From assembly GCF_008065095.1 (NCBI RefSeq), contig NZ_CP042911.1, positions 840,001 through 872,000 on the forward strand: a DNA stretch of 32,000 bases, in the 5' to 3' direction. The notes beneath the pieces are model-generated. The model saw only the letters and a list, made by a program, of their open reading frames with translations. It was not told where the DNA came from and did no database searches. Positions 1-31,200 of the stretch are shown piece after piece. The stretch comes from Gemmata obscuriglobus. Lineage in GTDB: Bacteria; Planctomycetota; Planctomycetia; Gemmatales; Gemmataceae. The stretch's first letter is position 1, and each line of letters begins with the position of its first letter. Both the position numbers and the translations under genes were made by a program.

Positions 1-501
1 GTGAGTGCGGGGGACACCCGCCTCGCGGGCGCCGTAACCGTCGTCGTGCGCACCAGCGCCGCGGCGGTGACCGCGCCCGTCGCCGCGCCGATCGCGCCGG
101 CCCCGCCGCCGGTTCCGGTCCCCCCTCCGATTGCCGCGCCACCTACGCCCGCGCCTCCCGCGCCCCCTGCAGCCGGCGACTACGACGACGGCCTGCCGAT
201 GCCGCTGGTGCCCCCGGCGCCGGCGCGCCGCCCGGTCGCTTCGATCCTCGACCTGGACGACCCGCGACCGGCACCGCCGAAGCCCGTGGCGCCGCCACCC
301 CCGGCGGCGAAACCGCCGGGACCGGTCGCGGGTCCGAAACCGCCGGTGCCGGCCCCGCCGCGCCCGCCCGTTCCGACCGTCGCCAAGCCGCCGGCGATCG
401 CCGCCAAGGACGGCGGCGCGGACGCGTGCCCGACCTGCCGGCGCAAGATCCCCGGCGCCCCGGGCGCGCGGTACTGCATGGTGTGCGACAAGACCTTTTG
501 A
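1..501 (+). CDS. Pro/Ala-rich protein ending in a CxxC-x12-CxxC zinc ribbon; probably 5'-truncated by the window edge
   Basis: Frame +1 is open from nt 1 to TGA 499-501, with G/C-dominated third codon positions. A long PAPPP-type tract is followed by CPTCRRKIPGAPGARYCMVCDKTF. It is on the same strand as the vWA gene and 52 nt upstream of it. The GTG at nt 1 is not evidence for a real start. Confidence 0.5.
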   Translation: MSAGDTRLAGAVTVVVRTSAAAVTAPVAAPIAPAPPPVPVPPPIAAPPTPAPPAPPAAGDYDDGLPMPLVPPAPARRPVASILDLDDPRPAPPKPVAPPPPAAKPPGPVAGPKPPVPAPPRPPVPTVAKPPAIAAKDGGADACPTCRRKIPGAPGARYCMVCDKTF

Positions 502-553
502 AACGCTGCCCCGAAGCCGACCCGACCTCTGCCACAGATAAGGAGCCCCGCCA

Positions 554-1450
554 GTGCCCTACGACATGCAGATCGACCGCTCCAACCCCGGGTGCATCGT
601 GTTCCTGGTGGACCTGTCCAACTCGATGCTCGACGGCATCGCGGGGACGCAGCGGGCCAAGATGGACACGGTCTCGACCGCGATCAACCGGTTCTTCCAG
701 GAGCTGATCACGAGCTGCGAGAAGGGCGAGGAGAAGCCCCGCAACTACTTCGACGTGGGGCTCATCGGGTACACCACCGACGCCAACGGGGTCGCGATCG
801 TCCGCCCGCTGTTCCAGCTCGGGCTGGCCGGCCGGGACCTCGTGAGCATCAGCGAGCTGTACGACCACCCGCTGGAGATCGAGCAGCGCCGCAAGAAGGA
901 GTTCGTGGACGACGGCGCCGGCGGGCTGACCGAGGTGGAGCGGCAGATCGCGTTCCCGGTGTGGTTCCGCTCGCCGGCCCCGACGGAGATGTTCGGCACC
1001 CCGATGTGCACGGCGCTGGGGTACGGCAAGCAGGTGCTCCAGGCGTGGATCGACGCGCACCCGAACAGCTTCCCGCCGATGGTCATCAACCTGACCGACG
1101 GCGAGTCGACCGACGGGATCCCGGTCCCGTTCGCCGAGGACCTCAAGGCGCTGGCCACCGCCGACGGGAGCGTGCTGCTGTTCAACTGCCACCTGTCGGG
1201 CCGCGACGCGCAGCCGGTGTTCCTCCCCTCCACCGAGTCGGCCCTGCCGGACGAGTACGCCCGCGACCTGTTCGGCATGTCCAGCCCGCTGCCGGACAAG
1301 CTGCGGCACATGGCGGAGGTGAAGGGGATCTCGGCCCCGCTCGGGTGCAAGGCGATGGCGTTCAACGCCGACGCGGTGAGCCTGCTGAAGCTGCTTAACG
1401 TGGGCACGCAGGTGGTCGCGGCGGCCACCCTGCCCCCGCACCTGCGGTGA
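554..1450 (+). CDS. von Willebrand factor A (vWA) domain protein, TerY-like, with intact MIDAS
   Basis: GTG 554 lies 8 nt after AGGAG (541-545). The translation shows DLSNS (aa 20-24, nt 611-625), GTPMCTAL (Thr149) and LTDGESTDG (Asp182). These cover all MIDAS positions of a metal-binding vWA fold. Confidence 0.8.
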   Translation: MPYDMQIDRSNPGCIVFLVDLSNSMLDGIAGTQRAKMDTVSTAINRFFQELITSCEKGEEKPRNYFDVGLIGYTTDANGVAIVRPLFQLGLAGRDLVSISELYDHPLEIEQRRKKEFVDDGAGGLTEVERQIAFPVWFRSPAPTEMFGTPMCTALGYGKQVLQAWIDAHPNSFPPMVINLTDGESTDGIPVPFAEDLKALATADGSVLLFNCHLSGRDAQPVFLPSTESALPDEYARDLFGMSSPLPDKLRHMAEVKGISAPLGCKAMAFNADAVSLLKLLNVGTQVVAAATLPPHLR

Positions 1451-1462
1451 GCGCACGTTTCA

Positions 1463-1541
1463 AGTTCCAGGTTCCGAGTTCCACGCCCGACGGTCGGGAG
1501 CCTGGTTTCGTGCCCCTAACTTGGAACCCGCCACTTGGAAC
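1463..1541. repeat. Intergenic GTTCC/GGAAC repeat set between the two vWA genes
   Basis: Read directly from the sequence. There are three tandem 7-mers, AGTTCCA-GGTTCCG-AGTTCCA (1463-1483). A small hairpin CCCGA-CGG-TCGGG follows (1486-1498). Then come two copies of ACTTGGAAC (1519-1527 and 1533-1541) in the opposite orientation to the GTTCC units. The last copy contains the predicted TTG start (1535). Confidence 0.6.
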
Positions 1542-3376
1542 ATGAAACTACAGCGGAGCCGCCGCCCGGGTGCCTCGTGCTGCTCCTGCGGCTCTCGGGC
1601 GGGATGACCCGCGACGTGGTCACCCCCCGGGGCGAGGCGCCGGCGGTCGAGGCGGCGCGGCTCCTCGCGGACGACCTCATCGAAGGGCTGGTGAACACGG
1701 CCGCGGCCGGGTACGCGGTCGGCGCGCTCGACGTCGCCGTGCTCGGCTACCGCGCGCCCGACCAGGAGGGCCAGCAGCTCCTCTCGCTGCTCCCCGACGG
1801 CGACCCCAAGCCGCGGTTCGTGCCGCTCGCGCACGTCGCCGGGGCGCCGGCGGTCCCGCGCGACGGGGACGGGCTCCCGCGGAAGTGGGCCGTGCTCCCC
1901 GCCTGCGCCGGCGAGCCGTCCGCCGGCGCGGCCCTCGCGGGCGTTTACCAGATGGTGTCCGTGTGGCTCACCGGGCGCTACGCGAGCCGCCCGCCGGTCG
2001 TCATCCACTGCGCCGGCGCCGGCGACCACGACGACAGCTACTTTACTACCGCGCGGTCGCTGAACCTGCTCGGCACGGCCCACGGGCCGACGCGCCTGCT
2101 GCACTACACCTTCGCCCCGCAGCCCGCGGCCCCCGCCGACTCCCGGCTCGCGGACGTGTCGGCGGCGCTCGCGGCGCGCCGCGGCGCGTTCGTCAACGAG
2201 TGGGACCTCGCCGACCCGTGGGACGCGATCTTCGCGTGCGCGCCCCAGGAGGACGCGACCGCCTGGGCCGACGCCGGGGCCGGGCTGTCCGGCGTGTGCG
2301 CCATGTGGGCGCAAAAGATGGGCAACACCCCCGAACAGTGGGAGGACGCCTACGCGCTGGACGAGGGCCGCGGCGCCGCGGCCGTTGCCGACGGGGCCAG
2401 CAGCGGCATCTACTGCAGCATCTGGGCGCAGCAGCTCTGCCGGCGGCTTCTGGCGGACCGCCCGGACGTTCGGGACCCCGCGGCTCTGAACAAATGGGTC
2501 GCCGGGTTGCGCGCGGAGTGGCGCGCGGCGATCAACTACGACGGGCTGAACTGGTCGAAGCAGGCCAAGGTCGATCAGGTCGGCGCCGCCGCGACCCTTC
2601 TGGGGCTGGAAGTCGGCCCCGCGGATGCGACCGGCGGGCGCCCGTGGCGCGCGTGCGCGGTCGGCGACGCGAGCCTGTTCTGGGTGCGCCGGGGCGAGCT
2701 GCTGGCGACGTTCCCGGTGGTCGCGGCGGACCAGTTCGGGTCGGCGCCGCTGCTGGTGCGGTCGAGCCCGGGGTACCGCACGGCCGCGCTCGCGGCCGCC
2801 GGGACGTGCGAGCCGGGCGACCGGTTCGTGCTCGCGACGGACGCCGTGGCGGCCCGGCTGTTCAAAAGCGCCGCGACCGAACTCGGCGTCGACTGGGAGC
2901 GGCTCGAGGGCCTCGCGGAAGCCGACTGGCGCGCGGAACTGGACGTGCTCCGGCGCGGCAACGACATGGTCAACGACGATTGCACGCTGGTCGTTCTGCG
3001 CGTCACCGACCCGGCGCGCGAGGGGCCTGAGCCCCCCGAAGTAGTCGGAGAGGTTTTCGCGCGCGAAGACGTACCCGCGCGCGAGCCGCTCGCAGAGGCG
3101 TTCGCGGTCGAAGATGTGCCGGCGAACGAGGGGCTCACGCTCGAAGAGGCGCTCGCCCTCGAGCCGCTCGCGGTCGAAGAGGCGGCCGCGAGCGAGCCGC
3201 CGGCGCGCGAGCCCGGGGGGGAGCCACAAGAGCGCTCGGGACCCGGCGGCTCGGGCGCGCCGCCGAACGAACCCGTTGCGGTCGGCGGCGGCGACGTGGT
3301 GATCGATCTGCCCTGCGACCCGCCACCGGCGCCGCCCGCGGACGGCGCACCGGCGCGAACGGCCTCCGGCGACTGA
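1535..3376 (+). CDS. Fusion protein: degenerate (MIDAS-less) vWA-like domain + PP2C-type Ser/Thr phosphatase domain + acidic Glu/Pro/Ala-rich tail
   Basis: The longest in-frame start is TTG 1535 and it has no obvious SD. GTG 1577 is the next option, so the start is uncertain. The N-terminal ~200 aa parallels the upstream vWA (CLVLLLRLSGGM vs CIVFLVDLSNSM; PPVVIHCAGAGDHDDS vs PPMVINLTDGESTDG), but the MIDAS Asp/Ser/Thr/Asp residues are replaced. Residues ~255-490 carry PP2C-type motifs with their Asp residues: AVADGASSG, AVGDASLFWVRRGEL, FVLATDAV and NDDCTLVVL. The tail contains a duplicated F-A-x-E-D-V-P-A unit. Confidence 0.7.
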   Translation: MEHETTAEPPPGCLVLLLRLSGGMTRDVVTPRGEAPAVEAARLLADDLIEGLVNTAAAGYAVGALDVAVLGYRAPDQEGQQLLSLLPDGDPKPRFVPLAHVAGAPAVPRDGDGLPRKWAVLPACAGEPSAGAALAGVYQMVSVWLTGRYASRPPVVIHCAGAGDHDDSYFTTARSLNLLGTAHGPTRLLHYTFAPQPAAPADSRLADVSAALAARRGAFVNEWDLADPWDAIFACAPQEDATAWADAGAGLSGVCAMWAQKMGNTPEQWEDAYALDEGRGAAAVADGASSGIYCSIWAQQLCRRLLADRPDVRDPAALNKWVAGLRAEWRAAINYDGLNWSKQAKVDQVGAAATLLGLEVGPADATGGRPWRACAVGDASLFWVRRGELLATFPVVAADQFGSAPLLVRSSPGYRTAALAAAGTCEPGDRFVLATDAVAARLFKSAATELGVDWERLEGLAEADWRAELDVLRRGNDMVNDDCTLVVLRVTDPAREGPEPPEVVGEVFAREDVPAREPLAEAFAVEDVPANEGLTLEEALALEPLAVEEAAASEPPAREPGGEPQERSGPGGSGAPPNEPVAVGGGDVVIDLPCDPPPAPPADGAPARTASGD

Positions 3377-3393
3377 CCTGCGCGAGGAACCCC

Positions 3394-5625
3394 ATGCCCC
3401 CGCTCCGTTCGTTCGCACTCGCGGCCCTCGTCGCGCTCGCGCCGGGTGCCGTCGCCCGGGACGCGGCCGAGGTCCAGAAGCGGCTCGCGACCGGGTCCGA
3501 CGCGCAAAAGCGGCTCCGCGTGGACGCCCTCACCGTTGCCGACGGCCGGGCGAAACTCACCGGAGCGTTCCTCGACGTTCCGGCCGCCCGGGAGGGCGCC
3601 CCGACCGCGTTCGCGACCGCGCAGGAAGAGACCGCCAAGCTCGTTCGCGAGGTGCTCAAGAGCGCGAACCTCGTTCTCGACTGGTCCGGGGTGCAAAAGG
3701 TCGAAGAAAAGGATCACCCGCACGTCGTGCTCCAGGCCGCGGCCAACGCGGCGGGGTCGAAGGGCGACGCGCCCGCGGACCGGGTTCTGTTCGCGTCGAG
3801 CCGGTTCGGCCCCGACGGTGCGGTGGTGCTTTCTGGCCGCCGTGGCAAGGACGAAGCCGTTGCGAAATGGGTAGCAGGCGCCATTTCTGAACGCCTCGCG
3901 AAGAGCCCCGCCGTGAAACTCGTCGGCGAGAAGCCGCTCGTCGTTGACGGTTTGAAGGCGGTCGAATGGAAGCTCACTCCGGCGGACGTTCAGAAACTGC
4001 TCGCGACCTCAACTGACGCCGCCACGCGCCGGCTCCGTGCGGACCGCGTGTGCCTCGCGTTCGACGCCCAAAATCCCGACCCGGCCGCGCGTTACACCGT
4101 ACTCCACCTCAGGTTTTCTGGAGTACGGCTCAGCGAGGACGCCGTCCGCACCGGCCCCATCTCCGACGCATGCCGCAAGCAATGGCCCGAACTGTTCGTC
4201 GGCGCGCCGCGGGTGCTGATCGATCTCAAGCCCCTGCTGGGGCCGGGGGTTCCGGAGCTGGCGCAGAAGCTGCAAACCGCGGTCGCGGCCAGACCGCCCC
4301 TCGACGGCGTGCGCATCGACCCGGGGGCGGAGTTCGATTCCGAGGGGCGTTTGGTGCTTGTGGGCGCTCAACCGGGGCTGACGGTCGCGGGTGAGAAGGA
4401 GCTGACGACCACGTTCCAGGCCGTGTTGAAGGAACTCGCCGGCAAAGGGGGCGCGGCGTCCGGGCGGTACCAGCGCCTTGCAGAAGGCGCCATATCGGTC
4501 AAGCGGATGAAGGTCGTCGCGACGAAAAAGGTGCTCGCCGAGCTGCGCGAGTGGGCCGACAAGACGACGGACGACGCCCGCGTCTCGCGAGTCCACTTCG
4601 GGGCCGACGGGGCGCTCACGCTCGACGCCAAAACCGTGACGAAAAGTGACGGCGAGAAGGTGTGGCGGAAGTTCAAGGAACTGACCGATCGGCACCTCGC
4701 CCCGGATGGTTCCCAAGAGAACGGGCGTTCGTTCGGCGCGGTGGCGGAGCCGAAGGGGGACCCGCCCACGTTCGGCGCGAGCCTGACCGCTCACCTGCGC
4801 AAAGAGATGGCCGCCGACCAAAAGAAATGGAACGGCGTGCTCATCGAGCGCGGGCTCTTTGACGCCGACAACCGGTACACGTTACGGGGAGTGGCCGACA
4901 GCGCGAAGCAAAACGACGAACTCGCGAAGCTGCTCGGTGCGATCCAGGCTGACCCCAGGTGGGCCGAATTCTTCGCGGTCGCGCCCAACAAACCGGCGCT
5001 CGACGTGCTTCCGCTCAGCGACCTGCTCGATCGGGTGAAGCGAGTGACGCCAGCGTACCCGGAGTTCGACGGGGTGCGGATCGAGGCCGCGCGGTACGAC
5101 GCGGATGTGAACCTCATTTTCGATGCGACCGCCGCCGGGGCGGTTGGCGCCGCGCCGGCGGAACTGCTGGCGAAACTGATCCGCGACCACGAGGGCTACA
5201 GGCGCCGCGTGCCCGCCGGTAAGCCGGTCAAGATCGTGCGCACCGGCGGCCCGGCCGCAGCGGGCCGCGACGGATTTAGCTTGGCCACCGGGGCCCAACT
5301 GGTGGAACAGGGCGACGACAAGAAGGTCCGGGCGTGGCTCGACGACGCCCTGCTGAACCACGCGAACGAGTCGGGGTTGTGGTACCTGAGCGCGTACCAC
5401 AACCATCTGAAGGGCGAGGCGGAACTGGTGCGCCGCGACCTGCGCCGGGTGATCGAACTGGAGGGCGGCCCGGGGGCGAATGAGGGGACCCAGCGGAAGC
5501 GCCGGTACGAGGCGGCGAAGAACCTTCAGGGCAAAGCCCGTAACGAACTGGACGCGCTGTGGGTGGAGTATCAGCGTGAGGTCAAAAACGGTGCCAAGCG
5601 AATCACGCTGACGGCGGATAAATGA
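3394..5625 (+). CDS. Secreted 743-aa protein of unknown function built from ~7 BON-like repeat modules plus a helical C-terminal region
   Basis: ATG 3394 lies 5 nt after GAGGA (3384-3388) and 17 nt after the previous stop. The N-terminus is signal-like (MPPLRSFALAALVALAPGAVA). A module of the form helix - [RG]-[VI]-x4-[FY]-x2-[DE]-G-x-[LV]-x-L-x-G recurs. Examples are RVDALTVADGRAKLTG, SSRFGPDGAVVLSG, EFDSEGRLVLVG, VHFGADGALTLD, GLFDADNRYTLRG and RYDADVNLIFD. Confidence 0.65.
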   Translation: MPPLRSFALAALVALAPGAVARDAAEVQKRLATGSDAQKRLRVDALTVADGRAKLTGAFLDVPAAREGAPTAFATAQEETAKLVREVLKSANLVLDWSGVQKVEEKDHPHVVLQAAANAAGSKGDAPADRVLFASSRFGPDGAVVLSGRRGKDEAVAKWVAGAISERLAKSPAVKLVGEKPLVVDGLKAVEWKLTPADVQKLLATSTDAATRRLRADRVCLAFDAQNPDPAARYTVLHLRFSGVRLSEDAVRTGPISDACRKQWPELFVGAPRVLIDLKPLLGPGVPELAQKLQTAVAARPPLDGVRIDPGAEFDSEGRLVLVGAQPGLTVAGEKELTTTFQAVLKELAGKGGAASGRYQRLAEGAISVKRMKVVATKKVLAELREWADKTTDDARVSRVHFGADGALTLDAKTVTKSDGEKVWRKFKELTDRHLAPDGSQENGRSFGAVAEPKGDPPTFGASLTAHLRKEMAADQKKWNGVLIERGLFDADNRYTLRGVADSAKQNDELAKLLGAIQADPRWAEFFAVAPNKPALDVLPLSDLLDRVKRVTPAYPEFDGVRIEAARYDADVNLIFDATAAGAVGAAPAELLAKLIRDHEGYRRRVPAGKPVKIVRTGGPAAAGRDGFSLATGAQLVEQGDDKKVRAWLDDALLNHANESGLWYLSAYHNHLKGEAELVRRDLRRVIELEGGPGANEGTQRKRRYEAAKNLQGKARNELDALWVEYQREVKNGAKRITLTADK

Positions 5626-5751
5626 GCCGAAGGCGCGCGGTCGGTCGCGATATGGCTGCTCGCCCCGGTTGGTGGTACCTACGAAGGGCGATCGCCGGTC
5701 GGGAGGGAACGCCATCCGGGATCCGGTCGTTTCAAGCTGTTGGTTGTGCGC

Positions 5752-5823
5752 CACCCGCCTGCTGATGCAGGCGGTTCGACAAGCCACGTTACACCCGCCT
5801 GCGTCAGCAGGCGGGTGTAACGT
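5752..5823. repeat. Two adjacent related palindromes sharing the 11-nt arm CACCCGCCTGC (REP-like); the second is a perfect 17-bp stem
   Basis: Hairpin 1 is CCGCCTGC-TGAT-GCAGGCGG (5755-5774). Hairpin 2 is ACGTTACACCCGCCTGC-GTCA-GCAGGCGGGTGTAACGT (5786-5823). CACCCGCCTGC occurs at 5752-5762 and 5792-5802. Confidence 0.8.
5786..5823. terminator. Probable bidirectional transcription stop (17-bp perfect stem, 4-nt loop) between convergent genes
   Basis: It lies between the stop of the + strand gene (5625) and the stop of the - strand gene (5879). There is no clear U-tract on either side, so intrinsic-terminator function is an inference. Confidence 0.45.
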
Positions 5824-5878
5824 GTTGGGCTCCGCGAGTGATCTCATCTCGGCGGCCGTCAACTTGAAACGACTGGAA

Positions 5879-7393
5879 TCAGTTCAGCCCCGCGGCGCGT
5901 TTCCGCCAGCGCACGAGCGGCGCGCCCGCGGCCTTCGCGTCGAGGGCGTTCCACGCGGTCTGCGCCTCCGCGAGCACATCCGCCGGCTTCGCACCCGAAC
6001 CGAGCTTCCGCAGCGCGGCCGCCGCGTCGCGGGTGAGGGCCTCACGGTCCGGGCCACGCAGACCGAGCGTCGGGTTCTTGACCGCCTCGGCCAGGTACCC
6101 CCGCAGCGTGTCTTGCAGGGCCTGCGACCGGGCCGGGTCGAACCCGTACCCGAGCCACAGCGGGAACTGGTCCGGGCTGAGGTCCGCGGGGCGCAGGGGG
6201 CCGGCGCCCAGGCCCGGGGTGCTGATCAGTTCCGCCGTTCGGGCCGGGCCGGCCAACTCCGCGAGCAGCTCGAACGCCAGTTCGGGACGCGGGCAGCGTG
6301 CCCGGACCACCCCCAGCCGCCCCCCCGCGAAGTACGGAACGTAGTTCACCACCTGCTTCTCGGCCGGGGGGGCGCCCGGCTCGAGGGGCCGTTGCGCGCC
6401 CGGTACGGGGGCGATCCCGAACCGCGCCGGTACCGTGCCGTTCTCGCGCGGCAGTTTCGCGAGCTGGTCGAGCGAAACGATCGCCAGCACCGCCTTGCCG
6501 GCCGTCAGCGCGGCGACCGGGTCATCGGACGCGCCGGGCGGAACGGCGCCGGCCGCCGCGAGCCCCGCCAGCCACCGCGCCGATTCCGCGAACCCCCGCG
6601 CCAGCAGCCGCGGCTTGCCGGTCCGGATCTCGAAGTGGAACGCGAGCAACTCCTCGTCCTTGACCCGCTCGCTCAGGTCCTTGTCGCTCAGGGTCGGGCG
6701 GTCGAAGGAACTCGCGACGCGGGAGAACAGGTCGAACAGGGCGGTCGGGTCGGCCGGCAGCGGGGGCACGCTCGGCCCCTTGTCGCGGGCCGCGAAGAAC
6801 GCGGCCACGTCCGCGTACTGGTCCCAGGTGGCCGGGGCGGCGAGCGGCCCCTTCCCGCGCTTGGCGAACTCCGCGGCGGCGGCCGGATCGGCGAACCGGT
6901 CGGCCCGGTACACCAGCAGCACCCCGTCGCCGGTGAGCGGGATCGCCTGGGTCTGATCGCCCCACGCCGCGAGCCGCTCCGCGTACGGCGGCAGCATCTC
7001 CGAAACCAGCCCGCGCCACTTCAGCGGCAGCGGCGCGAGGTGCCCGGGTTCGGCCCACTCGCCGAGGCGGTTCGCGGGGAGCACCGCGAGGTCGGTGGCG
7101 TCGGCCGCCGTCATCGGGTCGCGGGTGAGGGTCACCGCCGCGCCGGTCCGCACCTCCCAGGAGCGGATCATCGGCTCGACGGCGGCGGCGAACGCCGGGT
7201 CCGAGCAGTTGAACGTCAGTTGCGCGCCTTCGTGGGGCCGCCCGGGGCGGTCCGGGGCGGTGCCCTGCGCCCCGCTCCCGTCGCACCCGGTGACCAGAGC
7301 ACCGAGCGCGGCGACGAGCAGAAGGCCGCCAATTATGGTGAGGGTGTGAAGCCGGTATCGGTTGCGCGGAATCGGGGGAAGTGCCTGTTGCAT
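5879..7393 (-). CDS. Extracellular solute-binding lipoprotein (ABC-type family 1-like), with no adjacent permease or ATPase
   Basis: I place the start at ATG 7393-7391 (MQQALPPIPRNRYRLHTLTIIGGLLLVAALGALVTGC). This gives a signal peptide plus a VTGC lipobox. The longer 7543 start adds a non-signal extension. The body has SBP-like features (APATWDQYADVAAFFAARD, two-lobe length of ~480 aa). Confidence 0.6.
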   Translation of the reverse strand: MQQALPPIPRNRYRLHTLTIIGGLLLVAALGALVTGCDGSGAQGTAPDRPGRPHEGAQLTFNCSDPAFAAAVEPMIRSWEVRTGAAVTLTRDPMTAADATDLAVLPANRLGEWAEPGHLAPLPLKWRGLVSEMLPPYAERLAAWGDQTQAIPLTGDGVLLVYRADRFADPAAAAEFAKRGKGPLAAPATWDQYADVAAFFAARDKGPSVPPLPADPTALFDLFSRVASSFDRPTLSDKDLSERVKDEELLAFHFEIRTGKPRLLARGFAESARWLAGLAAAGAVPPGASDDPVAALTAGKAVLAIVSLDQLAKLPRENGTVPARFGIAPVPGAQRPLEPGAPPAEKQVVNYVPYFAGGRLGVVRARCPRPELAFELLAELAGPARTAELISTPGLGAGPLRPADLSPDQFPLWLGYGFDPARSQALQDTLRGYLAEAVKNPTLGLRGPDREALTRDAAAALRKLGSGAKPADVLAEAQTAWNALDAKAAGAPLVRWRKRAAGLN

Positions 7394-7624
7394 AGCGCGC
7401 CGCCCGTAGCATACAATGACGAGCGCTACCACCAGGGTTTGCCGAAGAAACCCAAGACTCGCAGTGGTGCGCACACTCTGAGCGTAGCCCGATCGGGGTT
7501 CGCGGCAAGTCGGTGATGTCGTCCCTGCCCAGGCGCGGCCCACGCGCGGGGACGGTTCCCGGTCGCTCGCGACTCCTCACCTCGGCCGAGGGTTCGGACG
7601 GTTCAACGGCGAAGGACACACGAC

Positions 7625-8374
7625 ATGAAGGTGAGTTTGGTCGTTGCGTCTGGGGCCCACGAGGGCCGCGTGATTCCGCTGACCGGGTCGCAGTTCCTGA
7701 TCGGCCGCGATCAGCAATGCAACTTGCGCCCGGCCAGCCCCGCGATCAGCAAGTTGCACTGTGCGGTCGTGGTCCGCGACGGGAAAGTGTTCGTCAAGGA
7801 TTTCGGCAGTACCAACGGAACGCTCGTCAACGGCCAACTCGTCCAGAGTGCAGAAATCGTCATTGAGAACGGCGCCTCGCTCCAGGTCGGCCCGCTCGAC
7901 TTTACGGTGCGGATCGAGAAGGCCGCGCCGAAGGTGGACGGTACCCCGCTCGGTGATTCCCCCGAAACGGCGGCGGCACTTGCCGCCGTTAAGGCCGCCG
8001 CGGCGGCCCCGAAGGCGCCGGTCCGCGACGCCACACCGGCACCGGTCAAGCCCGCTAGCAAGTCAGGGGTGACCGCTCCGACCAAGCCGGCCCCGGCGAA
8101 AGTGCCGCCGAAGCCGGCGCCCGCCGCCGCAAGCACGTCGGACGAAGACGACGTGGCCGCGATGCTCCTGGGCATGGACGATGAGGGGAACGGCAGCGTT
8201 CCCGACGGCAGCACGGTGATGGAGATCCCGAACCCGCTTACGGCCGGAACGGGAGAGCCCCCCAAATCGAACAGCGGAGAGAAGCCGGGCGAGCCGAAGA
8301 AGGCCCAGACCCGTGAGGAGATGACCAACGCCGCCAACGACCTGCTCCGTCAGTACATGCGCCGCCCGAAGTGA
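7625..8374 (+). CDS. FHA domain protein with a long Ala/Pro/Lys-rich disordered tail
   Basis: ATG 7625 lies 9 nt after AAGGA. The FHA signature is LIGRDQQCNLR...ISKLHCAVVVRDGKVFVKDFGSTNGTLVNG (G-R...S-x-x-H...N-G). The C-terminal ~150 aa is low complexity. Confidence 0.85.
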   Translation: MKVSLVVASGAHEGRVIPLTGSQFLIGRDQQCNLRPASPAISKLHCAVVVRDGKVFVKDFGSTNGTLVNGQLVQSAEIVIENGASLQVGPLDFTVRIEKAAPKVDGTPLGDSPETAAALAAVKAAAAAPKAPVRDATPAPVKPASKSGVTAPTKPAPAKVPPKPAPAAASTSDEDDVAAMLLGMDDEGNGSVPDGSTVMEIPNPLTAGTGEPPKSNSGEKPGEPKKAQTREEMTNAANDLLRQYMRRPK

Positions 8375-8401: not shown

Positions 8402-8457
8402 AGCGAGTTTGAACCCGCGGGCCCAGCACCGCGGGTTCAAACTCGCTACTGTTTTGT
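8402..8457 (+). terminator. Rho-independent terminator after the FHA gene
   Basis: A 19-bp perfect stem, AGCGAGTTTGAACCCGCGG (8402-8420) pairing with CCGCGGGTTCAAACTCGCT (8429-8447), encloses an 8-nt loop. It is followed by ACTGTTTTGT. Confidence 0.65.
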
Positions 8458-22155: not shown

Positions 22156-22354
22156 TTTTTCGCTGCCGCCTTAAAGGTCGCACAACGCATTTAAACGGGC
22201 GAGGCGTGGCGGAAGTGCTTCCGCCCCCGCTCCGCTTACCGCAACTGAACTGAACCGCAAGGCACCAGACGCTCTGCACGGCGGGCGAGCGTGCTGGCAC
22301 GGTACAATGGGCGGCGCGAACCGTTCCGCGGTCCGGGTCGGCGAAAGGAAACGC

Positions 22355-24598
22355 ATGCTCCGCGAAGTGCAGATCGACATCCGGCGACAGCGGGCGAGGG
22401 CCACGAAGTTCGCAATCGAGAACTTGGGCAAGAACCGCGTGTTCTCGGACTACCGGGTTACCAACCCGGAGTCCGGCGGGCAGTACACGGTTTCGATTAA
22501 AGGGTTCGAGGTGGGGGACAACGCCTGCACGTGCCCGGACTTCAAGGCGAACACACTCGGCACCTGCAAACACATTGAGGCCGTGCTCGACCACCTCAAG
22601 GACGAACTGCCGGCACACCTCCAGAAAAAGAAAGCGGTCGTCACCCGGCCCGAGATCTTCCTTCACTACGGCGAGCAGCTTCAGGTCGGGGTTCACCTCC
22701 CCCCCCGGCACTCCGACAAACTCGGGCGGCTGGCGCACGCCTACTTCGACGACAAGGGGCTGTGGTCCGGACGGGGGAAGTACCCGGACCTCATCCGCGA
22801 CGTGGAGGCGGTGCCCGAAGAGGTCACCGTAATGTCCGACGCGCTGGAGTTCATCGACCGCGAGATCGAGCGCGCCGAGATGCTCGCCCGCGAGCAGGAG
22901 TGGTTGCAACAACTGGAAGCCGGCACGCTCGACATGCCTCTCCTCTCGGTGCCGCTGTACGACTACCAGATGCGCGGGGTGCTGTTCCTCGCGTGCCGGG
23001 GCCGCAGCATCCTCGGCGACGACATGGGGCTCGGGAAAACCGTACAGACGCTCGCGGCGGTCGAGCTGCTGGCCCGCGAGCGCGGCATCCGCCGCGCGCT
23101 GGTCGTCGCCCCGGCTTCGGTCAAGTACCAGTGGGAGACCGAGATCCGGAAGTTCACCGCGCGGCCCGTTCAGGTGATCGAGGGCGGCCCCGGGGTCCGG
23201 CTCGACCAGTACGCCGAGCCCACCTTCTTCCGGCTCGTCAACTACGAACAGGTCGTGCGTGACCGCGAGGCGATCAACGCCTGGAAGCCCGACGTGATCG
23301 TGCTGGACGAGGCGCAGCGGATCAAGAACTGGGAGGCGAAGACCTCGCGCGAGGTGAAGAAGCTGCGGAGCCGGTACGCGATCGTTCTGACCGGCACCCC
23401 CCTGGAGAACCGGCTCGAGGAGCTGTACAGCATCGTGCAGTTCGTGGACGAGCGCCGGTTCGGCCCGGCGTTCGAGTTCCTCCACGAGCACCGGGTGCTG
23501 GACGAGAACGGCAACCTCAAGGGGTACCGCAACCTCGACAAGATCCGCGAGAAACTCGCGCCCATCTTCCTGCGGCGCACCCGCGGCGAGGTGCTCACGC
23601 AGCTCCCTGCGCGCACGGACAACACCGTGTTCGTGGAACTCGCCGACGAGCAGCGCGGCCCTTACGAGGAGCAGCGGGTCACGCTGGCGCGGCTCCTTCA
23701 AAAGAACTACCTGACCGACCTCGACCGGAAGCGCATCCTCGCGTCGCTGGTGAACCTCCGCACCATCTGCGACAGCCTGTTCCTGTACGACAAGCAGACC
23801 CGCGTGTCCCCCAAGCTGGACGAGTTCGCGGAGCTCGTCCCCGAACTCGTCAGCGATCACAAGCTGGTGGTGTTCTCGCAGTGGGAGACGATGGCGATGG
23901 AGGCCGCGAAGGTGCTCGACCGGTTGGGCGTGGGCTACGTGCTCCTGCACGGCGGCCTGCCCGGGAAGGAGCGCAAGGCGGTGCTCGAGCGGTTCCAGGC
24001 CGACGCGGCGTGCAAAGTGTTCCTCAGCACCGACGCGGGCGGCACCGGCCTGAACCTTCAAATGGCGGACACGGTGGTGAACCTCGAACTGCCGTGGAAC
24101 CCGGCGGTGCTGGAGCAGCGCATCGCCCGGGTCCACCGGATGGGTCAGAACCGCCCGGTGCGGGTGATCAACTTTGTCACCCGTGGCACAATTGAGGAGC
24201 GGGTGCTGCGCACGGTCGAATCGAAGCAGGCGCTGTTCGCCGGGCTGTTCGCGGGCGACGCGGACGAGATCCCGTTCGAGGCGGTCGGCACCGGCAGGTT
24301 CCTCGACACCATGCGCGAACTGGTCGAGACGGGTGCAGAAGCGGAGGACGGCGGGCAAAGGGCCAGCGACCACGATCAGAAGACACAAGGCGAGTGCGTG
24401 CCGGCCTTACCGCCGTCACCGCTTGCGGCCCGGCCCTTGCCTTCCGCGTGGCACGGATTGGCCCAAATTGTAGAAGGTGCGTGCGCGGTGCTGGCTGATC
24501 CGGACGCGATGCAGCAACTGCCCCCCGAGGTACGCGAGCGGCTGCGCGCCGCTATCCGCTCACTTGACAGCCACTTCCGTTCAGAACCGTCGAATTAG
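22355..24598 (+). CDS. SNF2-family ATPase/helicase with N-terminal SWIM zinc finger
   Basis: ATG 22355 (AAGGA 6 nt upstream) is preferred; ATG 22307 is the alternative. The SWIM finger is CTCPDFKANTLGTCKHI. SNF2 motifs: DDMGLGKT (I), LDEAQRIKN (II), LTGTPLENR (III), and helicase-C FLSTDAGGTGLNLQ and QRIARVHRMGQ (VI). A ~110-aa C-terminal extension has no motif I recognise. Confidence 0.85.
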   Translation: MLREVQIDIRRQRARATKFAIENLGKNRVFSDYRVTNPESGGQYTVSIKGFEVGDNACTCPDFKANTLGTCKHIEAVLDHLKDELPAHLQKKKAVVTRPEIFLHYGEQLQVGVHLPPRHSDKLGRLAHAYFDDKGLWSGRGKYPDLIRDVEAVPEEVTVMSDALEFIDREIERAEMLAREQEWLQQLEAGTLDMPLLSVPLYDYQMRGVLFLACRGRSILGDDMGLGKTVQTLAAVELLARERGIRRALVVAPASVKYQWETEIRKFTARPVQVIEGGPGVRLDQYAEPTFFRLVNYEQVVRDREAINAWKPDVIVLDEAQRIKNWEAKTSREVKKLRSRYAIVLTGTPLENRLEELYSIVQFVDERRFGPAFEFLHEHRVLDENGNLKGYRNLDKIREKLAPIFLRRTRGEVLTQLPARTDNTVFVELADEQRGPYEEQRVTLARLLQKNYLTDLDRKRILASLVNLRTICDSLFLYDKQTRVSPKLDEFAELVPELVSDHKLVVFSQWETMAMEAAKVLDRLGVGYVLLHGGLPGKERKAVLERFQADAACKVFLSTDAGGTGLNLQMADTVVNLELPWNPAVLEQRIARVHRMGQNRPVRVINFVTRGTIEERVLRTVESKQALFAGLFAGDADEIPFEAVGTGRFLDTMRELVETGAEAEDGGQRASDHDQKTQGECVPALPPSPLAARPLPSAWHGLAQIVEGACAVLADPDAMQQLPPEVRERLRAAIRSLDSHFRSEPSN

Positions 24599-28235: not shown

Positions 28236-31200
28236 TCAGCGGAGCCGCTCGACGTAGGGCACGACCGGCTTGTACTTATCGAGAGTGAAGTTGAACCCCG
28301 GTTGTGGCCCCGCGTACCCCGGCCGCACGTTCGATACGACGGTACCACCCCAGGCGTCACGAGTGAGGCCAGTCACTTCCAGTTGCCCCGCTCCGAGTAC
28401 CTTGGTCACGACTACGGGAGTGGGGGTCGGATTTCCTGCGGTCGGGTTCGGTGGTTGTTGCTCAGCACCATATCCAATGATCAACTGAGTACCAACCGTG
28501 ATTGGCTTCCTGACCCCATCAGCAGACACGTATACAATCCCATTACCGGTATCATATGACTCATGCGCAATTGACAGTATAGACGTTGTTGCCGGAGCAA
28601 CCGGGGCGCGGGCGGTCGCCGTAAGCGCCGTGAAGAACGGAGCCTCGGTCGCGTGAGGGTTCGTGTCGGTGAGCGACGTCGTTCCCTTCAACGCCATGTT
28701 CGACATGTCGATGACGGCCACGAACTTCTGCCGCATGTCGCCGGGAATTTGATCGTATACCTCGGCTCCGAAGCGCGGAGGCGCTGGCACACCCGTAGGC
28801 CAAGTCGTCGGCACCGTTTGCAAACCATCAGGCTCAAAGTACCCAACGGTCAGATACACCACGAACGAATGGCTGACGGTGGTGAGGTTGTTCATGACCT
28901 TGCGCAGCGGCTCGCTCTGCGTATACGGGTGATGAACAACGGTGGGGTCAGCCTGCGGGTCCAAGATCAGGTGCGGTTCCGGGTTCGGAATGGCCGTTGT
29001 CTCCGGGCGCCGCAAGATCGTGTCCCCGTCGATGAACGTACTCGGGTTCCCGTAGGCAAACGTGCCGGCCGTTGCAGTCGGGGTCGCAAAGGGCATGAAC
29101 GGCCGGTCGGCACCGCCTTCCGCGATGCTCCCGGTCGGCACCGGGGAGTTGAACACGGTGACACCGTCCGCCTGCTTACGTCCCTGCATGTTCGAGCGGG
29201 ACCGCAGCCACTTGTCCCACACTGTGTCGTTCACGAAGGCGAGGTTGAACCGGTTGTTCGCCTGTGGCGCCCACACACCTTGTACGACGCGGCGATCCTG
29301 GATCACGTTCGGGTTCACCTTACCGGCGACCCGACCGCCGTGAGGCACGCGGAGGTCCGGCGACTTCACGGACAGCAGACCCAGCGCCCGCGTGAGCCCG
29401 TCGTTGTGCCTCGTCCACTGCGCGTAGCTGGCGTCGTATCGGAGGGACGGTGCGGTCGCGTTCGGGCGCACGAACTCGGACGTGAGCCGGTGCGGCGGGC
29501 AGTCTCGCACCGTGAACAGATCGCCCTGCGTTTCGAGCGGCCGGTCCAGGTGGGGCAGCCAGTCGAACGGGAGCATAATGGTATCCGTGAGCGTTGCCGG
29601 GGTATTGGCAGGTGTCACGGTCGCGCCCCCCGGGAGTGCCGCCAAGTGCCCATTATGACGACCGAAAGTATTTTTCGGCTCGTTCGGGTCGTTCGTTACC
29701 ATCGGATCTGTCGCCGGAGTCGGCAGGGTCGGGGCACCGGTCTGGTCCCGGATCATCGAGTCTGTCAGCGAAGAAGCGACTGCACGCCCGGTGTTACCGT
29801 TGTACACGTTGTACGCCCCAGGGCCGTTCATCGGAACCATGCCCGAATACGCAGCTAACGGCTGGACCTTTCCGACGGAGAACCTCTGGGTCACAGGATC
29901 GTACCCACCCGGGTTGCCGCCGTCTCGTTCCTTGCGGTCCGTCGGTTGTCCCGCCGCGCGGTGAACCGCGTCGAACGCCGGCACATTGTCCATCATGTCA
30001 ACGGTGACGTAAGGGTTGGGCGTCCGACTCGGATCGTAGCTGTAGTTCGGGTCGTTGGCCGGCAAGTACGGATTGGTGAGCCGGCGGAGTTGCACCACGT
30101 GCCGCTTGAACTCCTTGTTTGATAGGATGGTCGCGCTGGGCATCGTCAACATGTACCCCATCCCGCTACTGGACGTCGCCGGCCCGAGAGGTTGCGAATC
30201 GACCTTGTTCGTCGTTGCCCAAACGCCGGCTGCCGGGGGGGTGAATTCTTTTGCGTCCTTTTTCGGAGTGAGCGTCGGCGGGCCGACCAGTACGAACCCG
30301 CCCGCCGGGAGCGTGCTGGCCGGGCCGCCCGTGTACGGCGGAGCATACTGGCTATTGGGGCCGTTGTTAATCAGTGTCACATCGTTGGGCGCGACAGCCG
30401 CAGGGTTACTCCCGACCGGAACAAGCGGGAAGTTAAACATTGCGTCAGCAGTGACCGGGGTTCCGGTCGCGTCACCAAATACTCCGGACGTGTTACTGAG
30501 CGAGCTAAGGAACGAGATCCGATCCCCGGTGCCACCGGTCTCCTGAATCGCACGTGCGATTTGGATCTGATAAGCGCTCAGATTCACGGCGCCGGTCCCA
30601 AGTACACCGGTGTTCGTTGCGTGCGGGGCGGAAGTCGGGTTCACTAACTCGGCCCAAAACCGAACTTGGGCGTTGGCCGTCGGTGCCAACGGAGTCGGGT
30701 TGCCGTCCTTGTCTTTGACAGCTTCAACCTGGTCACCCGGACCCGTATCGTTGGTGATCTCGCTATACACCTCGTTGAGCAGCAACCGCGGCTTCTCGAT
30801 GCCGAACACCGCCCGGTTGCCAACCTTTGCCGCTTTCAAATCCTCTGCTGCACCTTCAACAGGGTTCCACAGGAACGTGGTGCTGACATCGTCGTTGTCG
30901 ATGTGATCCACGATGTTCACCGCGAGCTGCGCCAGGTACCGCAGCGCGTCGTATTGCTGCGTGGTGTACGCCACACCCGCGCCGTTGATTTGGCGCGTGA
31001 TCGGGTTGGGAAGGCTGATGTTGCCGGTGTTTGGGTCAACGATGGCCGCCGCGCCGGTCGCGACACAGAGGCGGATGAAGATGTCTTTCGCCAGCGCCTG
31101 CCGGTCGGCCTCGGCCTGAACAACGTTGCCCATGTTTTTTAGCAACAACGGGTCCGGGGTCAGAGTTCCCGTCGGGTTTACATCGGTGCCGAGTGGCTTC

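What the first reader, a model, noticed from the sequence alone, without database searches (positions are those of the whole stretch)
1..5625. Four-gene same-strand cluster: Zn-ribbon protein, live vWA, dead-vWA::PP2C fusion, exported multi-BON-like protein
Seen in sequence: four ORFs on one strand are separated by gaps of only 52, 84 and 17 nt, and the cluster is closed by strong palindromes at 5755-5823. It therefore looks like one operon. The products are as follows. (i) A Pro-rich protein ends in a CxxC-x12-CxxC zinc ribbon. (ii) A vWA protein has every MIDAS residue. (iii) A second, clearly paralogous vWA has every MIDAS residue substituted and is fused to a PP2C-type phosphatase that keeps its metal-binding Asp residues. 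(iv) A signal-peptide protein is made of ~7 BON-like modules. Established knowledge: vWA (TerY) + PP2C + Ser/Thr kinase form the 'TerY-phosphorylation triad' noted in comparative genomics of Ter (tellurite-resistance-associated) loci. A vWA-containing kinase (PpkA), a PP2C (PppA) and an FHA protein (Fha1) form the threonine-phosphorylation switch of the Pseudomonas H1-T6SS. Here no kinase, Ter or T6SS gene is visible. The phosphatase is fused to a dead vWA, and the operon ends in an envelope-type repeat protein. I cannot match this combination to a described system. Inference: a ligand/metal-sensing vWA pair gates a phosphatase whose output is tied to an exported, membrane-associating protein. 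An FHA protein (7625-8374) lies 2 kb downstream and is a candidate phospho-reader.
Basis: partly seen in the sequence, partly recalled or inferred. Interest (0 to 1): 0.75.

Follow-up and report, generated by a model that had tools for sequence, protein, structure and literature searches.

The report
Half of a split GTPase/TerY-P system
The four genes are real and conserved, but they are the second half of a larger membrane-spanning signalling or defence system of Gemmata-type bacteria, and its missing kinase, GTPase and GAP1 partner are encoded elsewhere in this genome.

Summary
The window is Gemmata obscuriglobus and carries four tightly spaced same-strand genes.
- 1-501: the end of a 693-aa, roughly six-TM membrane protein (g693) with a cytoplasmic Pro-rich linker and a terminal zinc ribbon (ZnR).
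- 554-1450: a TerY-type vWA with an intact MIDAS.
- 1535-3376: a TerY-paralogous vWA with a degenerate MIDAS, fused to an intact PP2C.
- 3394-5625: an exported protein of seven alpha-beta-beta-alpha-beta modules plus a TPR-like end.

The claim that it has no kinase and matches no described system does not hold. In 34 Gemmatales/Isosphaerales-labelled loci the usual order is DO-GTPase2, TerY-P-type Ser/Thr kinase, GAP1-N2, g486, g693, TerY, vWA*::PP2C, orf4, then 0-3 vWA-TM-ZnR paralogues. TerY lies upstream of the fusion in 28/29 loci and orf4 downstream in 25/29.

G. obscuriglobus has split this system. DO-GTPase2, the kinase (GobsT_02160) and GAP1-N2 sit on other contigs, and orf4 is GobsT_07290.

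The kinase + PP2C + vWA theme of GAP1-N2 systems was described by Kaur et al. 2020, who called it restricted to actinobacteria. This is therefore a new variant of a known kind. Its function is untested. The nearby FHA gene is not part of the conserved cluster.

The parts
1..501 (+). 3' end (166 codons) of g693, a 693-aa membrane protein. A hydropathy scan indicates one N-terminal TM, then about 270 aa read as periplasmic, then a TM block at residues 311-466 that I read as five helices. The cytoplasmic part is a small beta-rich region, a Pro-rich linker and a C-terminal zinc ribbon. The window starts inside this gene.
   Evidence: Full gene at L002:2084-4165; hydropathy scan; no Pfam or PADLOC kinase or other hit. 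Found upstream of the fusion in 17/24 loci with enough flank.
427..486 (+). Zinc ribbon CPTC-x12-CMVC at the extreme C-terminus of g693. The motif CPxCGRxxPGxPGxRYCxxCDxT[YF]-end is shared with the vWA-TM-ZnR paralogues of relatives.
   Evidence: tblastn matches to the last ~26-36 residues at 55-76% identity in many loci.
554..1450 (+). TerY-type cytoplasmic vWA protein (298 aa) with intact MIDAS (D20, S22, S24, T149, D182). It is the most conserved component, 80-97% identical across the Gemmata- and Frigoriglobus-like loci.
   Evidence: PADLOC TerY E = 1.9e-77; MIDAS invariant in 19/19; identities; directly upstream of the fusion in 28/29 loci.
1535..2269 (+). N-terminal domain of the fusion protein: a TerY-paralogous vWA fold with a degenerate MIDAS (DxSxS becomes RLSGG, Thr lost, beta4 TDGE becomes CAGAG). 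The start is probably TTG 1535, because the conserved beta1 strand PPGCLV lies upstream of the start at 1577 that public gene calls use.
   Evidence: BLASTP to TerY 24% identity, E = 2e-4; hhalign 99.6%, E = 1e-24; AF2 pLDDT > 90; alignment A1; residue counts.
2306..3010 (+). PP2C (PPM) phosphatase domain of the fusion. All metal-binding and catalytic motifs are invariant in 16 orthologues (WEDA, DGAS, GAAAT, GDA, ATDA, NDDCT). Probably active.
   Evidence: Pfam PP2C_2 26.6 bits (cut-off 24) and PADLOC PP2C E = 7.9e-24; Foldseek PstP 2cm1 E = 2e-9, SpoIIE, PppA; invariant columns.
3011..3376 (+). Low-complexity acidic/Pro-rich C-terminal tail of the fusion. Predicted disordered and not conserved.
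   Evidence: pLDDT < 50 over model residues 484-599; unaligned tails in A1.
3394..5625 (+). orf4 (743 aa, GobsT_07290). It has an N-terminal hydrophobic segment (residues ~3-25) read as a signal peptide, then seven tandem alpha-beta-beta-alpha-beta modules (about residues 18-622; the BON / YscD-PrgH ring-building fold class), then a C-terminal TPR-like helical domain (about 628-735). It evolves fast: 35% identity where TerY is 83%.
   Evidence: AF2 pLDDT 87.4, pTM 0.72; module-to-module hhalign up to 91.5%; hydropathy. No Pfam BON. Sub-threshold PF16693 'YscD/CdsD-like Bon-like domain 1' and TPR in distant long relatives. Downstream of the fusion in 25/29 loci.
5752..5824 (.). Nested GC-rich inverted repeats between convergent genes. 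Probably a bidirectional transcription stop that closes the operon.
   Evidence: No T-run, so the simple terminator scan did not list it.

Best explanation
What it is. The cluster is the downstream half (g486, g693, TerY, vWA*::PP2C, orf4) of a 7-11-gene system found here only in genomes labelled Gemmatales or Isosphaerales. That system embeds a TerY-P phospho-switch (TerY vWA, PP2C, TerY-P-type Ser/Thr kinase) in a DO-GTPase2 / GAP1-N2 system. In G. obscuriglobus the upstream half (DO-GTPase2, the kinase with a ~670-aa helical extension, GAP1-N2) was found on other contigs, so the kinase would act in trans.

Shown:
- the identities of the domains;
- the conserved gene order;
- the intact catalytic motifs of the PP2C, and of the kinase's catalytic loop;
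- the invariant MIDAS of TerY and the degenerate MIDAS of its fused paralogue;
- N-terminal hydrophobic segments on g486 and orf4, the TM blocks of g693, and no TM segment in TerY. The compartment assignments (g486, orf4 and the first ~270 aa of g693 outside; TerY and the fusion inside) are read from these.

Inferred mechanism:
1. The proteins form an envelope-spanning assembly.
2. The fast-evolving periplasmic repeat protein orf4, and the periplasmic domains of g693-type proteins, meet an external or envelope cue.
3. The cytoplasmic ZnR tails of g693-type proteins dock the cytoplasmic module.
4. TerY uses its MIDAS metal to bind an acidic or phosphorylated peptide of a partner.
5. The dead vWA is a targeting domain. 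It holds the PP2C on the same scaffold, by pairing with TerY or by occupying its site.
6. Kinase and phosphatase set the phosphorylation state that controls assembly, with the DO-GTPase/GAP1 pair as the GTP-dependent switch.

The biological role is most likely surveillance or conflict (defence), as proposed for DO-GTPase and TerY-P systems, but this has not been tested.
For: - PADLOC TerY 1.9e-77 and PP2C 7.9e-24.
- The first ~300 residues of the 963-aa protein that heads relatives' operons match PADLOC STK_OB at 3e-50. They also match the third gene of canonical TerY-PP2C-STK triads.
- GAP1-N2/GAP1-M and DO-GTPase2.
- Gene-order table and counts: TerY 28/29, orf4 25/29, g693 17/24, g486 13/20, GAP1 13/17, kinase 11/15.
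- A compact complete operon in a soil metagenome contig, L079: DO-GTPase2, STK, GAP1-N2, a 460-aa gene in the g486 position (no BLAST match to g486), TerY, fusion, and a 2354-aa orf4-family protein.
- G. obscuriglobus orthologues of the upstream half on other contigs, L077 and L078. Locus tags are GobsT_02160 against GobsT_07290.
- Kinase catalytic loop HxDLQHxN and the DYD motif are invariant. PP2C motifs are invariant.
- Hydropathy scan.
- Literature: kinase + PP2C + standalone vWA is a theme of GAP1-N2 systems (PMC7159879). TerY-P kinases often end in a zinc ribbon, and live/degenerate TerY pairs occur (PMC11090510).
Against: - No experiment bears on function.
- The physical contacts (TerY with ZnR tail, dead vWA with TerY) are inferred only.
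- Two Gemmata species have lost orf4 (L011, L019), and 7/24 loci lack g693 upstream, so neither is indispensable.
- The identity of each component falls with taxonomic distance. This fits vertical descent, which is not typical of mobile defence islands.
- In G. obscuriglobus, co-regulation of the two loci is unknown. Other kinases could serve the PP2C: relatives also carry canonical TerY-P triads, for example L053 in G. algarum.
Confidence: 0.65

Rival explanations
1. Housekeeping envelope regulator. The same proteins form a lineage-specific, constitutive machine that controls assembly of a periplasmic or cell-surface structure. orf4's ring-building/BON-like modules would be the structural output. 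It would not be an immune or conflict system.
For: The identity of each component falls with taxonomic distance, as vertical descent predicts. TerY is very strongly conserved (80-97%). m504 and the FHA gene follow the cluster in both G. obscuriglobus and G. algarum. Among the loci retrieved, the fusion is confined to genomes labelled Gemmatales or Isosphaerales. orf4 modules weakly resemble PrgH/YscD periplasmic domains.
Against: The system has a constant core with a variable periphery. orf4 is 35% identical where TerY is 83%. The orf4 family ranges from 743 to 2354 aa. There are 0-3 vWA-TM-ZnR paralogues. orf4 is lost in two Gemmata species. An IS element and a bAvd gene are inserted in relatives. 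This pattern is the published hallmark of DO-GTPase conflict systems.
Confidence: 0.2
2. Autonomous kinase-less operon. The vWA pair senses a metal or ligand and gates the fused PP2C, which acts on the exported protein pathway. The nearby FHA protein is the phospho-reader.
For: No Ser/Thr kinase was found among the 15 window products scanned with Pfam, nor in the two genes upstream. The operon has its own ~430-nt upstream intergenic region and a divergent neighbour. The FHA gene is real (Pfam FHA E = 8e-16).
Against: In relatives the kinase, GAP1 and DO-GTPase lie in the same operon, and G. obscuriglobus retains all three. FHA is separated by an opposite-strand gene and is absent from the other fusion loci. 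A PP2C needs a kinase-made substrate.
Confidence: 0.08
3. Ordinary stand-alone TerY-P anti-phage triad (Gao et al. 2020 type), merely mis-assembled or rearranged.
For: Very strong PADLOC TerY and PP2C matches. Canonical TerY-PP2C-STK triads were retrieved with the same query from several phyla and from the same planctomycete genomes.
Against: In canonical triads the PP2C is a separate gene and the kinase follows it (STK downstream in 22/29). Here the PP2C is fused to a dead vWA and is followed by orf4, in 25/29 of the 34 fusion loci. The kinase, when linked, lies upstream beside GAP1-N2 and DO-GTPase2. The split is seen in independent assemblies.
Confidence: 0.05

Closest known systems
GAP1-N2-type DO-GTPase systems, third theme (kinase + PP2C + standalone vWA); Kaur, Burroughs, Iyer & Aravind 2020, eLife (PMC7159879)
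   Same: DO-GTPase2 with TM and zinc-ribbon elements; GAP1-N2/GAP1-M protein; an apparently active kinase; an active PP2C; a standalone vWA; TM-rich components with extracytoplasmic vWA domains; a fast-evolving repeat protein; a constant core with a variable periphery.
   Different: The paper calls this theme restricted to actinobacteria. The loci here are labelled Planctomycetota (Gemmatales/Isosphaerales). The PP2C is fused to a dead TerY paralogue. The kinase carries a long helical extension and no ZnR; the ZnR sits instead on the g693/vWA-TM proteins. The repeat protein is built of alpha-beta-beta-alpha-beta modules, not FNIII. g486 is an extra conserved gene. In Gemmata proper the system is split into two loci.
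TerY-P triad (Anantharaman et al. 2012, as summarised in PMC11090510; anti-phage TerY-P of Gao et al. 2020, PADLOC models TerY/PP2C/STK_OB)
   Same: TerY-family vWA with a perfect MIDAS, directly followed by a PP2C of the same subfamily. The cognate kinase belongs to the STK_OB family.
   Different: It is not a three-gene cassette. The kinase is not adjacent: it is in trans here and upstream in relatives. The PP2C is fused to a second, degenerate vWA. There is no OB fold, and no ZnR on the kinase. The module is embedded in a DO-GTPase system with exported and membrane proteins.
[quoted passage not shown]
   Same: A pair of TerY-related vWA domains in one operon. The 5' copy has a perfect MIDAS and the internal copy is degenerate.
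   Different: There the second vWA only lacks the middle Thr and is a separate gene flanking an ATPase. Here it has lost most MIDAS residues and is fused to PP2C. No McrBC, HEPN or CnuH components were seen.
YscD/PrgH periplasmic ring-building (BON-like) domains and BON domains (OsmY type)
   Same: alpha-beta-beta-alpha-beta modules in tandem in an exported protein. There are weak Foldseek matches to PrgH and near-threshold PF16693 matches in distant orf4-family members.
   Different: No orthologue reaches any Pfam threshold. There are seven or more modules plus a TPR end. No secretion-system genes are nearby. Ring formation and lipid binding are untested.
PpkA/PppA/Fha1 threonine-phosphorylation pathway of the Pseudomonas H1-T6SS
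   Same: A vWA-containing component, a PP2C (PppA is among the fold matches) and an FHA protein in the neighbourhood.
   Different: No T6SS-family match among the window products scanned. The vWA is not on the kinase. The FHA gene is not conserved with the cluster.

Membership tests
TerY-P triad | TerY-family vWA with intact MIDAS (DxSxS...T...D) | tested here: met
   PADLOC TerY E = 1.9e-77 over 286 of 298 residues. D20, S22, S24, T149 and D182 are invariant in 19/19 orthologues.
TerY-P triad | PP2C phosphatase gene next to TerY | tested here: met
   PADLOC PP2C E = 7.9e-24; Pfam PP2C_2 above the gathering score; PP2C fold. It is fused to an extra domain.
TerY-P triad | Ser/Thr kinase encoded in the same three-gene cassette | tested here: not met
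   No kinase among the 15 window products scanned or the two upstream genes. The orthologous STK_OB-type kinase P0241 is on another contig. In relatives it lies 3-4 genes upstream of TerY.
DO-GTPase / GAP1-N2 system (Kaur et al. 2020) | DO-GTPase gene in the system | tested here: inconclusive
   Absent from the window. Pfam DO-GTPase2 lies next to the kinase on G. obscuriglobus contig L077. It is in cis in L007/L033, L035, L040, L073 and L079. Functional linkage of the two G. obscuriglobus loci is inferred.
DO-GTPase / GAP1-N2 system (Kaur et al. 2020) | GAP1 protein with GAP1-N2 and GAP1-M domains | tested here: inconclusive
   Absent from the window. Present after the kinase on L078. Present in cis in 13/17 relatives with enough flank.
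DO-GTPase / GAP1-N2 system (Kaur et al. 2020) | Protein with rapidly evolving FNIII repeats | tested here: not met
   No FNIII match in Pfam for any product scanned. The fast-evolving repeat protein here, orf4, has alpha-beta-beta-alpha-beta modules. The fold of g693's periplasmic domains was not determined.
DO-GTPase / GAP1-N2 system, theme 3 | Active kinase + active PP2C + standalone vWA linked to GAP1-N2 | tested here: met
   All three are linked to GAP1-N2 in relatives. Catalytic motifs are conserved.
BON domain (Pfam PF04972) | Sequence match to the BON profile | tested here: not met
   No BON hit at E <= 1 for orf4, or at E <= 0.1 for any of 30 orthologues.
BON / ring-building-motif fold class | alpha-beta-beta-alpha-beta fold of each ~85-aa module | tested here: inconclusive
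   The DSSP pattern of a confident AF2 model fits seven such modules. Whole-chain Foldseek gives only weak PrgH matches (E ~ 0.1). PF16693 reaches 23.0 bits against a cut-off of 24 in a distant relative. No per-domain structure search was possible.
H1-T6SS threonine phosphorylation pathway | Linkage to T6SS core genes and a conserved FHA partner | tested here: not met
   No T6SS-family match among the window products scanned. FHA is syntenic only in G. algarum.
Ter (tellurite-resistance) cluster | TerD/TerZ/TerC/TerB genes nearby | tested here: not met
   No Ter-family Pfam match among the 15 window products scanned.

The most novel reading that the evidence does not exclude
The cluster encodes a new kind of trans-envelope apparatus.
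- orf4's tandem ring-building/BON-like modules would oligomerise into a periplasmic ring or sheath.
- Assembly would be controlled from the cytoplasm by a TerY / pseudo-vWA-PP2C / kinase phospho-switch.
- That switch would be docked on the zinc-ribbon tails of g693-type membrane proteins and gated by a DO-GTPase.

This would be a planctomycete-specific machine with no characterised equivalent. It would also give a first molecular role to the pseudo-vWA as a phosphatase-targeting domain.
Probability: 0.12. Interest if true: 0.75.

Novelty: new variant of a known kind. Interest (0 to 1): 0.45.

Why it matters
- It extends a predicted but uncharacterised class of bacterial conflict or signalling systems (DO-GTPase/GAP1-N2 with a TerY-P phospho-switch) to Planctomycetota. 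The only description I found says this theme is restricted to actinobacteria.
- It defines lineage-specific parts that can be tested: a dead-vWA::PP2C fusion, ZnR-tailed membrane proteins, and a repeat protein of BON/ring-building-like modules.
- The G. obscuriglobus split is a natural experiment. It shows that the kinase/GTPase half and the vWA/phosphatase/periplasmic half can be encoded apart.
- It is also a caution. Absence of a kinase from a 32-kb window did not mean a kinase-less system.

Tried and rejected
- Kinase hidden in the truncated ORF1. Rejected: the full 693-aa protein has no Pfam or PADLOC kinase match and is a multi-TM protein.
- Kinase elsewhere in the window. None among the 15 products scanned.
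- Plus-strand ORF 5669-7516. Spurious; the called gene there is the minus-strand 5879-7393.
- FHA as a system member. Rejected on synteny.
- NCBIfam gave nothing for the four proteins.
- PDB sequence searches found nothing for orf4, g693 or TerY.
- Foldseek of orf4 against PDB and BFVD gave no match at E <= 0.001.
- I tested whether canonical TerY-P kinases in the retrieved loci end in a ZnR like that of g693. None had CxxC...CxxC; they carry TM or other C-terminal regions. The ZnR link to TerY-P kinases therefore rests on the literature only.
- Anantharaman et al. 2012 could not be read.
- Rfam and tRNA scans of the window were empty.

Full report
**Observation.**
The window matches Gemmata obscuriglobus. 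Its TerY protein is encoded identically on ABGO01000249 (GCA_000171775) and on many read-set assemblies.

Four + strand ORFs lie at 1-501, 554-1450, 1535-3376 and 3394-5625, with gaps of 52, 84 and 17 nt. GC3 of 0.87-0.99 marks the first three frames as coding in this 70% G+C DNA; orf4 fell below that filter and rests on public gene calls and conserved orthologues. Nested inverted repeats at 5752-5824 lie between orf4 and a convergent minus-strand gene at 5879-7393. The long + ORF at 5669-7516 is spurious.

**What the four products are.**
- *ORF1.* This is only the last 166 codons of a 693-aa protein, g693 (L002:2084-4165). A hydropathy scan gives an N-terminal TM, then about 270 aa that I read as periplasmic and beta-rich, then a TM block at 311-466 that I read as five helices. 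The cytoplasmic part is a small beta region, a ~130-aa Pro-rich linker and a terminal CPTC-x12-CMVC ribbon. It has no kinase domain.
- *ORF2.* A TerY-family vWA: PADLOC TerY E = 1.9e-77. Pfam VWA is only sub-threshold. D20, S22, S24, T149 and D182 are invariant in 19 orthologues.
- *ORF3, N-terminal ~245 residues.* A TerY paralogue: BLASTP E = 2e-4 and profile-profile 99.6%, E = 1e-24, with AF2 pLDDT above 90. Its MIDAS is degenerate. The first Asp is never Asp in 15 orthologues. The first Ser is mostly kept. The beta4 Asp is kept in 9/16 orthologues but not here.
- *ORF3, C-terminal half.* A PP2C: Pfam 26.6 bits against a cut-off of 24, PADLOC E = 7.9e-24, and Foldseek matches to PstP, SpoIIE and PppA. 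All metal-binding motifs are invariant. The conserved beta1 strand (PPGCLV) lies upstream of the 1577 start used by public gene calls, so TTG 1535 is the likelier start.
- *ORF4.* It has an N-terminal hydrophobic segment read as a signal peptide. A confident model (pLDDT 87.4, pTM 0.72) shows seven alpha-beta-beta-alpha-beta modules and a helical TPR-like end. The modules are related to one another: hhalign gives up to 91.5%, and the pairs link all seven. No orthologue matches Pfam BON.
  - Whole-chain fold searches give only weak PrgH matches and TPR matches.
  - Distant, longer family members come close to PF16693, 'YscD/CdsD-like Bon-like domain 1' (23.0 bits against 24), and match TPR.
  - 'BON-like' is therefore a fair description of the fold class, not a family assignment.

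**Context beyond the window.**
Upstream of g693 lies a fifth co-oriented gene, g486. It has a hydrophobic N-terminus and no Pfam match. It is preceded by a ~430-nt intergenic region and a divergent gene.

A genome scan with an alignment of the fusion protein returned 62 loci. I mapped them with reference proteins.
- 34 loci carry the vWA*::PP2C fusion. All are labelled Gemmatales, Isosphaerales or unclassified Planctomycetota.
- The usual order is DO-GTPase2, a ~965-aa protein, a ~940-aa protein, g486, g693, TerY, the fusion, orf4, then 0-3 large paralogues of g693. These paralogues carry an N-terminal vWA domain, read as periplasmic, and the same C-terminal ZnR.
- The first ~300 residues of the ~965-aa protein are the TerY-P kinase (PADLOC STK_OB E = 3e-50). 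They also match the third gene of canonical TerY-PP2C-STK triads retrieved from Rhodothermales, Chloroflexota, Actinomycetota and others. The ~940-aa protein is GAP1-N2/GAP1-M.
- Counts among loci with enough flank: TerY upstream 28/29, orf4 downstream 25/29, g693 17/24, g486 13/20, GAP1 13/17, kinase 11/15, vWA-TM paralogue downstream 14/26.
- A soil metagenome contig carries a compact complete version ending in a 2354-aa orf4-family protein.

**The split in G. obscuriglobus.**
The kinase orthologue (P0241, 976 aa, GobsT_02160) is on other contigs. There it is flanked by DO-GTPase2 (736 aa) and GAP1-N2 (908 aa). orf4 is GobsT_07290. That is about 500 genes away if locus tags rise in tens, which is my inference.

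G. algarum and Gemmata sp. IIL30 also lack the kinase and GAP1 next to the cluster, and both lack orf4. G. palustris has the kinase standing alone. So the kinase is missing from the window because of a genus-level rearrangement, not because the system works without a kinase.

**Comparison with what is known.**
- Kaur et al. 2020 defined DO-GTPase/GAP1 systems. For the GAP1-N2 type they described a theme with an active kinase, a PP2C and a standalone vWA, which they called 'restricted to actinobacteria'.
- The CoCoNuT study summarises the TerY-P triad. It notes that the kinase often ends in a zinc ribbon, and that duplicated TerY domains can have one degenerate MIDAS.
- The present system belongs to this kind but differs in five ways:
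  1. lineage;
  2. the dead-vWA::PP2C fusion;
  3. the ZnR sits on membrane proteins rather than on the kinase;
  4. the repeat protein is built of alpha-beta-beta-alpha-beta modules in place of FNIII repeats;
  5. the extra gene g486.
- I found no paper describing this variant. That search covers only the open-access library held here.

**Mechanism.**
Domain identities, hydrophobic segments, catalytic competence and gene linkage are shown. The rest is inference.
- The periplasmic parts are orf4, g486 and the ectodomains of g693-type proteins. They evolve fast: orf4 is 35% identical where TerY is 83%. They vary in copy number and length, as expected of a sensing or contact surface.
- TerY is the most constrained part, so it is probably the hub. 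Its MIDAS would bind an acidic or phosphorylated peptide.
- The fused dead paralogue would tether the PP2C to the same scaffold.
- The kinase and the PP2C set a phosphorylation state that controls assembly, with the DO-GTPase/GAP1 pair as a GTP switch at the membrane.
- A defence or conflict role follows the published reading of both parent systems. A housekeeping envelope role is a serious rival, because the pattern of identities fits vertical inheritance.

**Not part of it.**
The FHA gene (7625-8374) is real. It lies beyond an opposite-strand gene with a lipoprotein-like N-terminus, and it is syntenic only in G. algarum. The other window products scanned are MutY-like, HDOD, a histidine kinase, an M61 peptidase, an FG-GAP/cadherin protein, a SWIM-SNF2 helicase and a PfkB kinase. 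They show no link to the cluster.

**Verdict.**
It is a new variant of a known kind, of moderate interest, and its function is untested.

Noticed in passing
window 8402-8447: A 19-pair (12 G-C) hairpin followed by a T-rich run, directly after the FHA gene. It is the strongest terminator-like site in the first 8.5 kb.
   Followed up: no
window 1535-1577: Public gene calls start the fusion gene at 1577 (599 aa). The conserved beta1 strand PPGCLV of orthologues lies upstream of that start, so the TTG at 1535 is the likelier start.
   Followed up: partly
L008:9567-9947; L007:9537-9971: In L008 a bAvd-type gene (PF22296/PF05635, an accessory protein of diversity-generating retroelements) is inserted between TerY and the fusion. 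In L007 an unrelated 144-aa ORF sits in the same place.
   Followed up: no
L011 (Gemmata algarum), L019 (Gemmata sp. IIL30): Both species keep g693, TerY and the fusion but have no orf4. In G. algarum the fusion is followed directly by the m504 and FHA genes.
   Followed up: partly
L078:6102-7043: At the other G. obscuriglobus locus, GAP1-N2 is followed by a 313-aa protein with a hydrophobic N-terminal region and a weak Exo_endo_phos (EEP) match. It could be a locus-specific effector. It is absent between GAP1 and g486 in relatives.
   Followed up: no
L073:20916-21798: A transposase pair (DDE_3 plus HTH) follows g693 in a metagenome contig that carries DO-GTPase2, STK, GAP1, g486 and g693. No TerY or fusion match was found in the ~3.5 kb that remain downstream.
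   Followed up: no
L050: A MAG labelled Singulisphaera carries a canonical TerY-PP2C-STK triad with an ~1800-aa kinase. About 6 kb downstream there is a second arrangement, GAP1-like, TerY-like, then another STK.
   Followed up: no
window 28236-31943 (-): A 1235-aa ORF with no Pfam match at E <= 0.01.
   Followed up: no
window 22307-24595 (+): A SWIM zinc finger fused to an SNF2-family helicase (763 aa).
   Followed up: no
L053, L048, L058 (canonical triads in planctomycetes): The canonical TerY-P kinases of these planctomycete genomes carry very long C-terminal extensions (1050-1480 aa) that start with a hydrophobic segment. In L053 there is a weak beta-propeller match. These genomes therefore hold two different TerY-P-derived systems.
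   Followed up: partly
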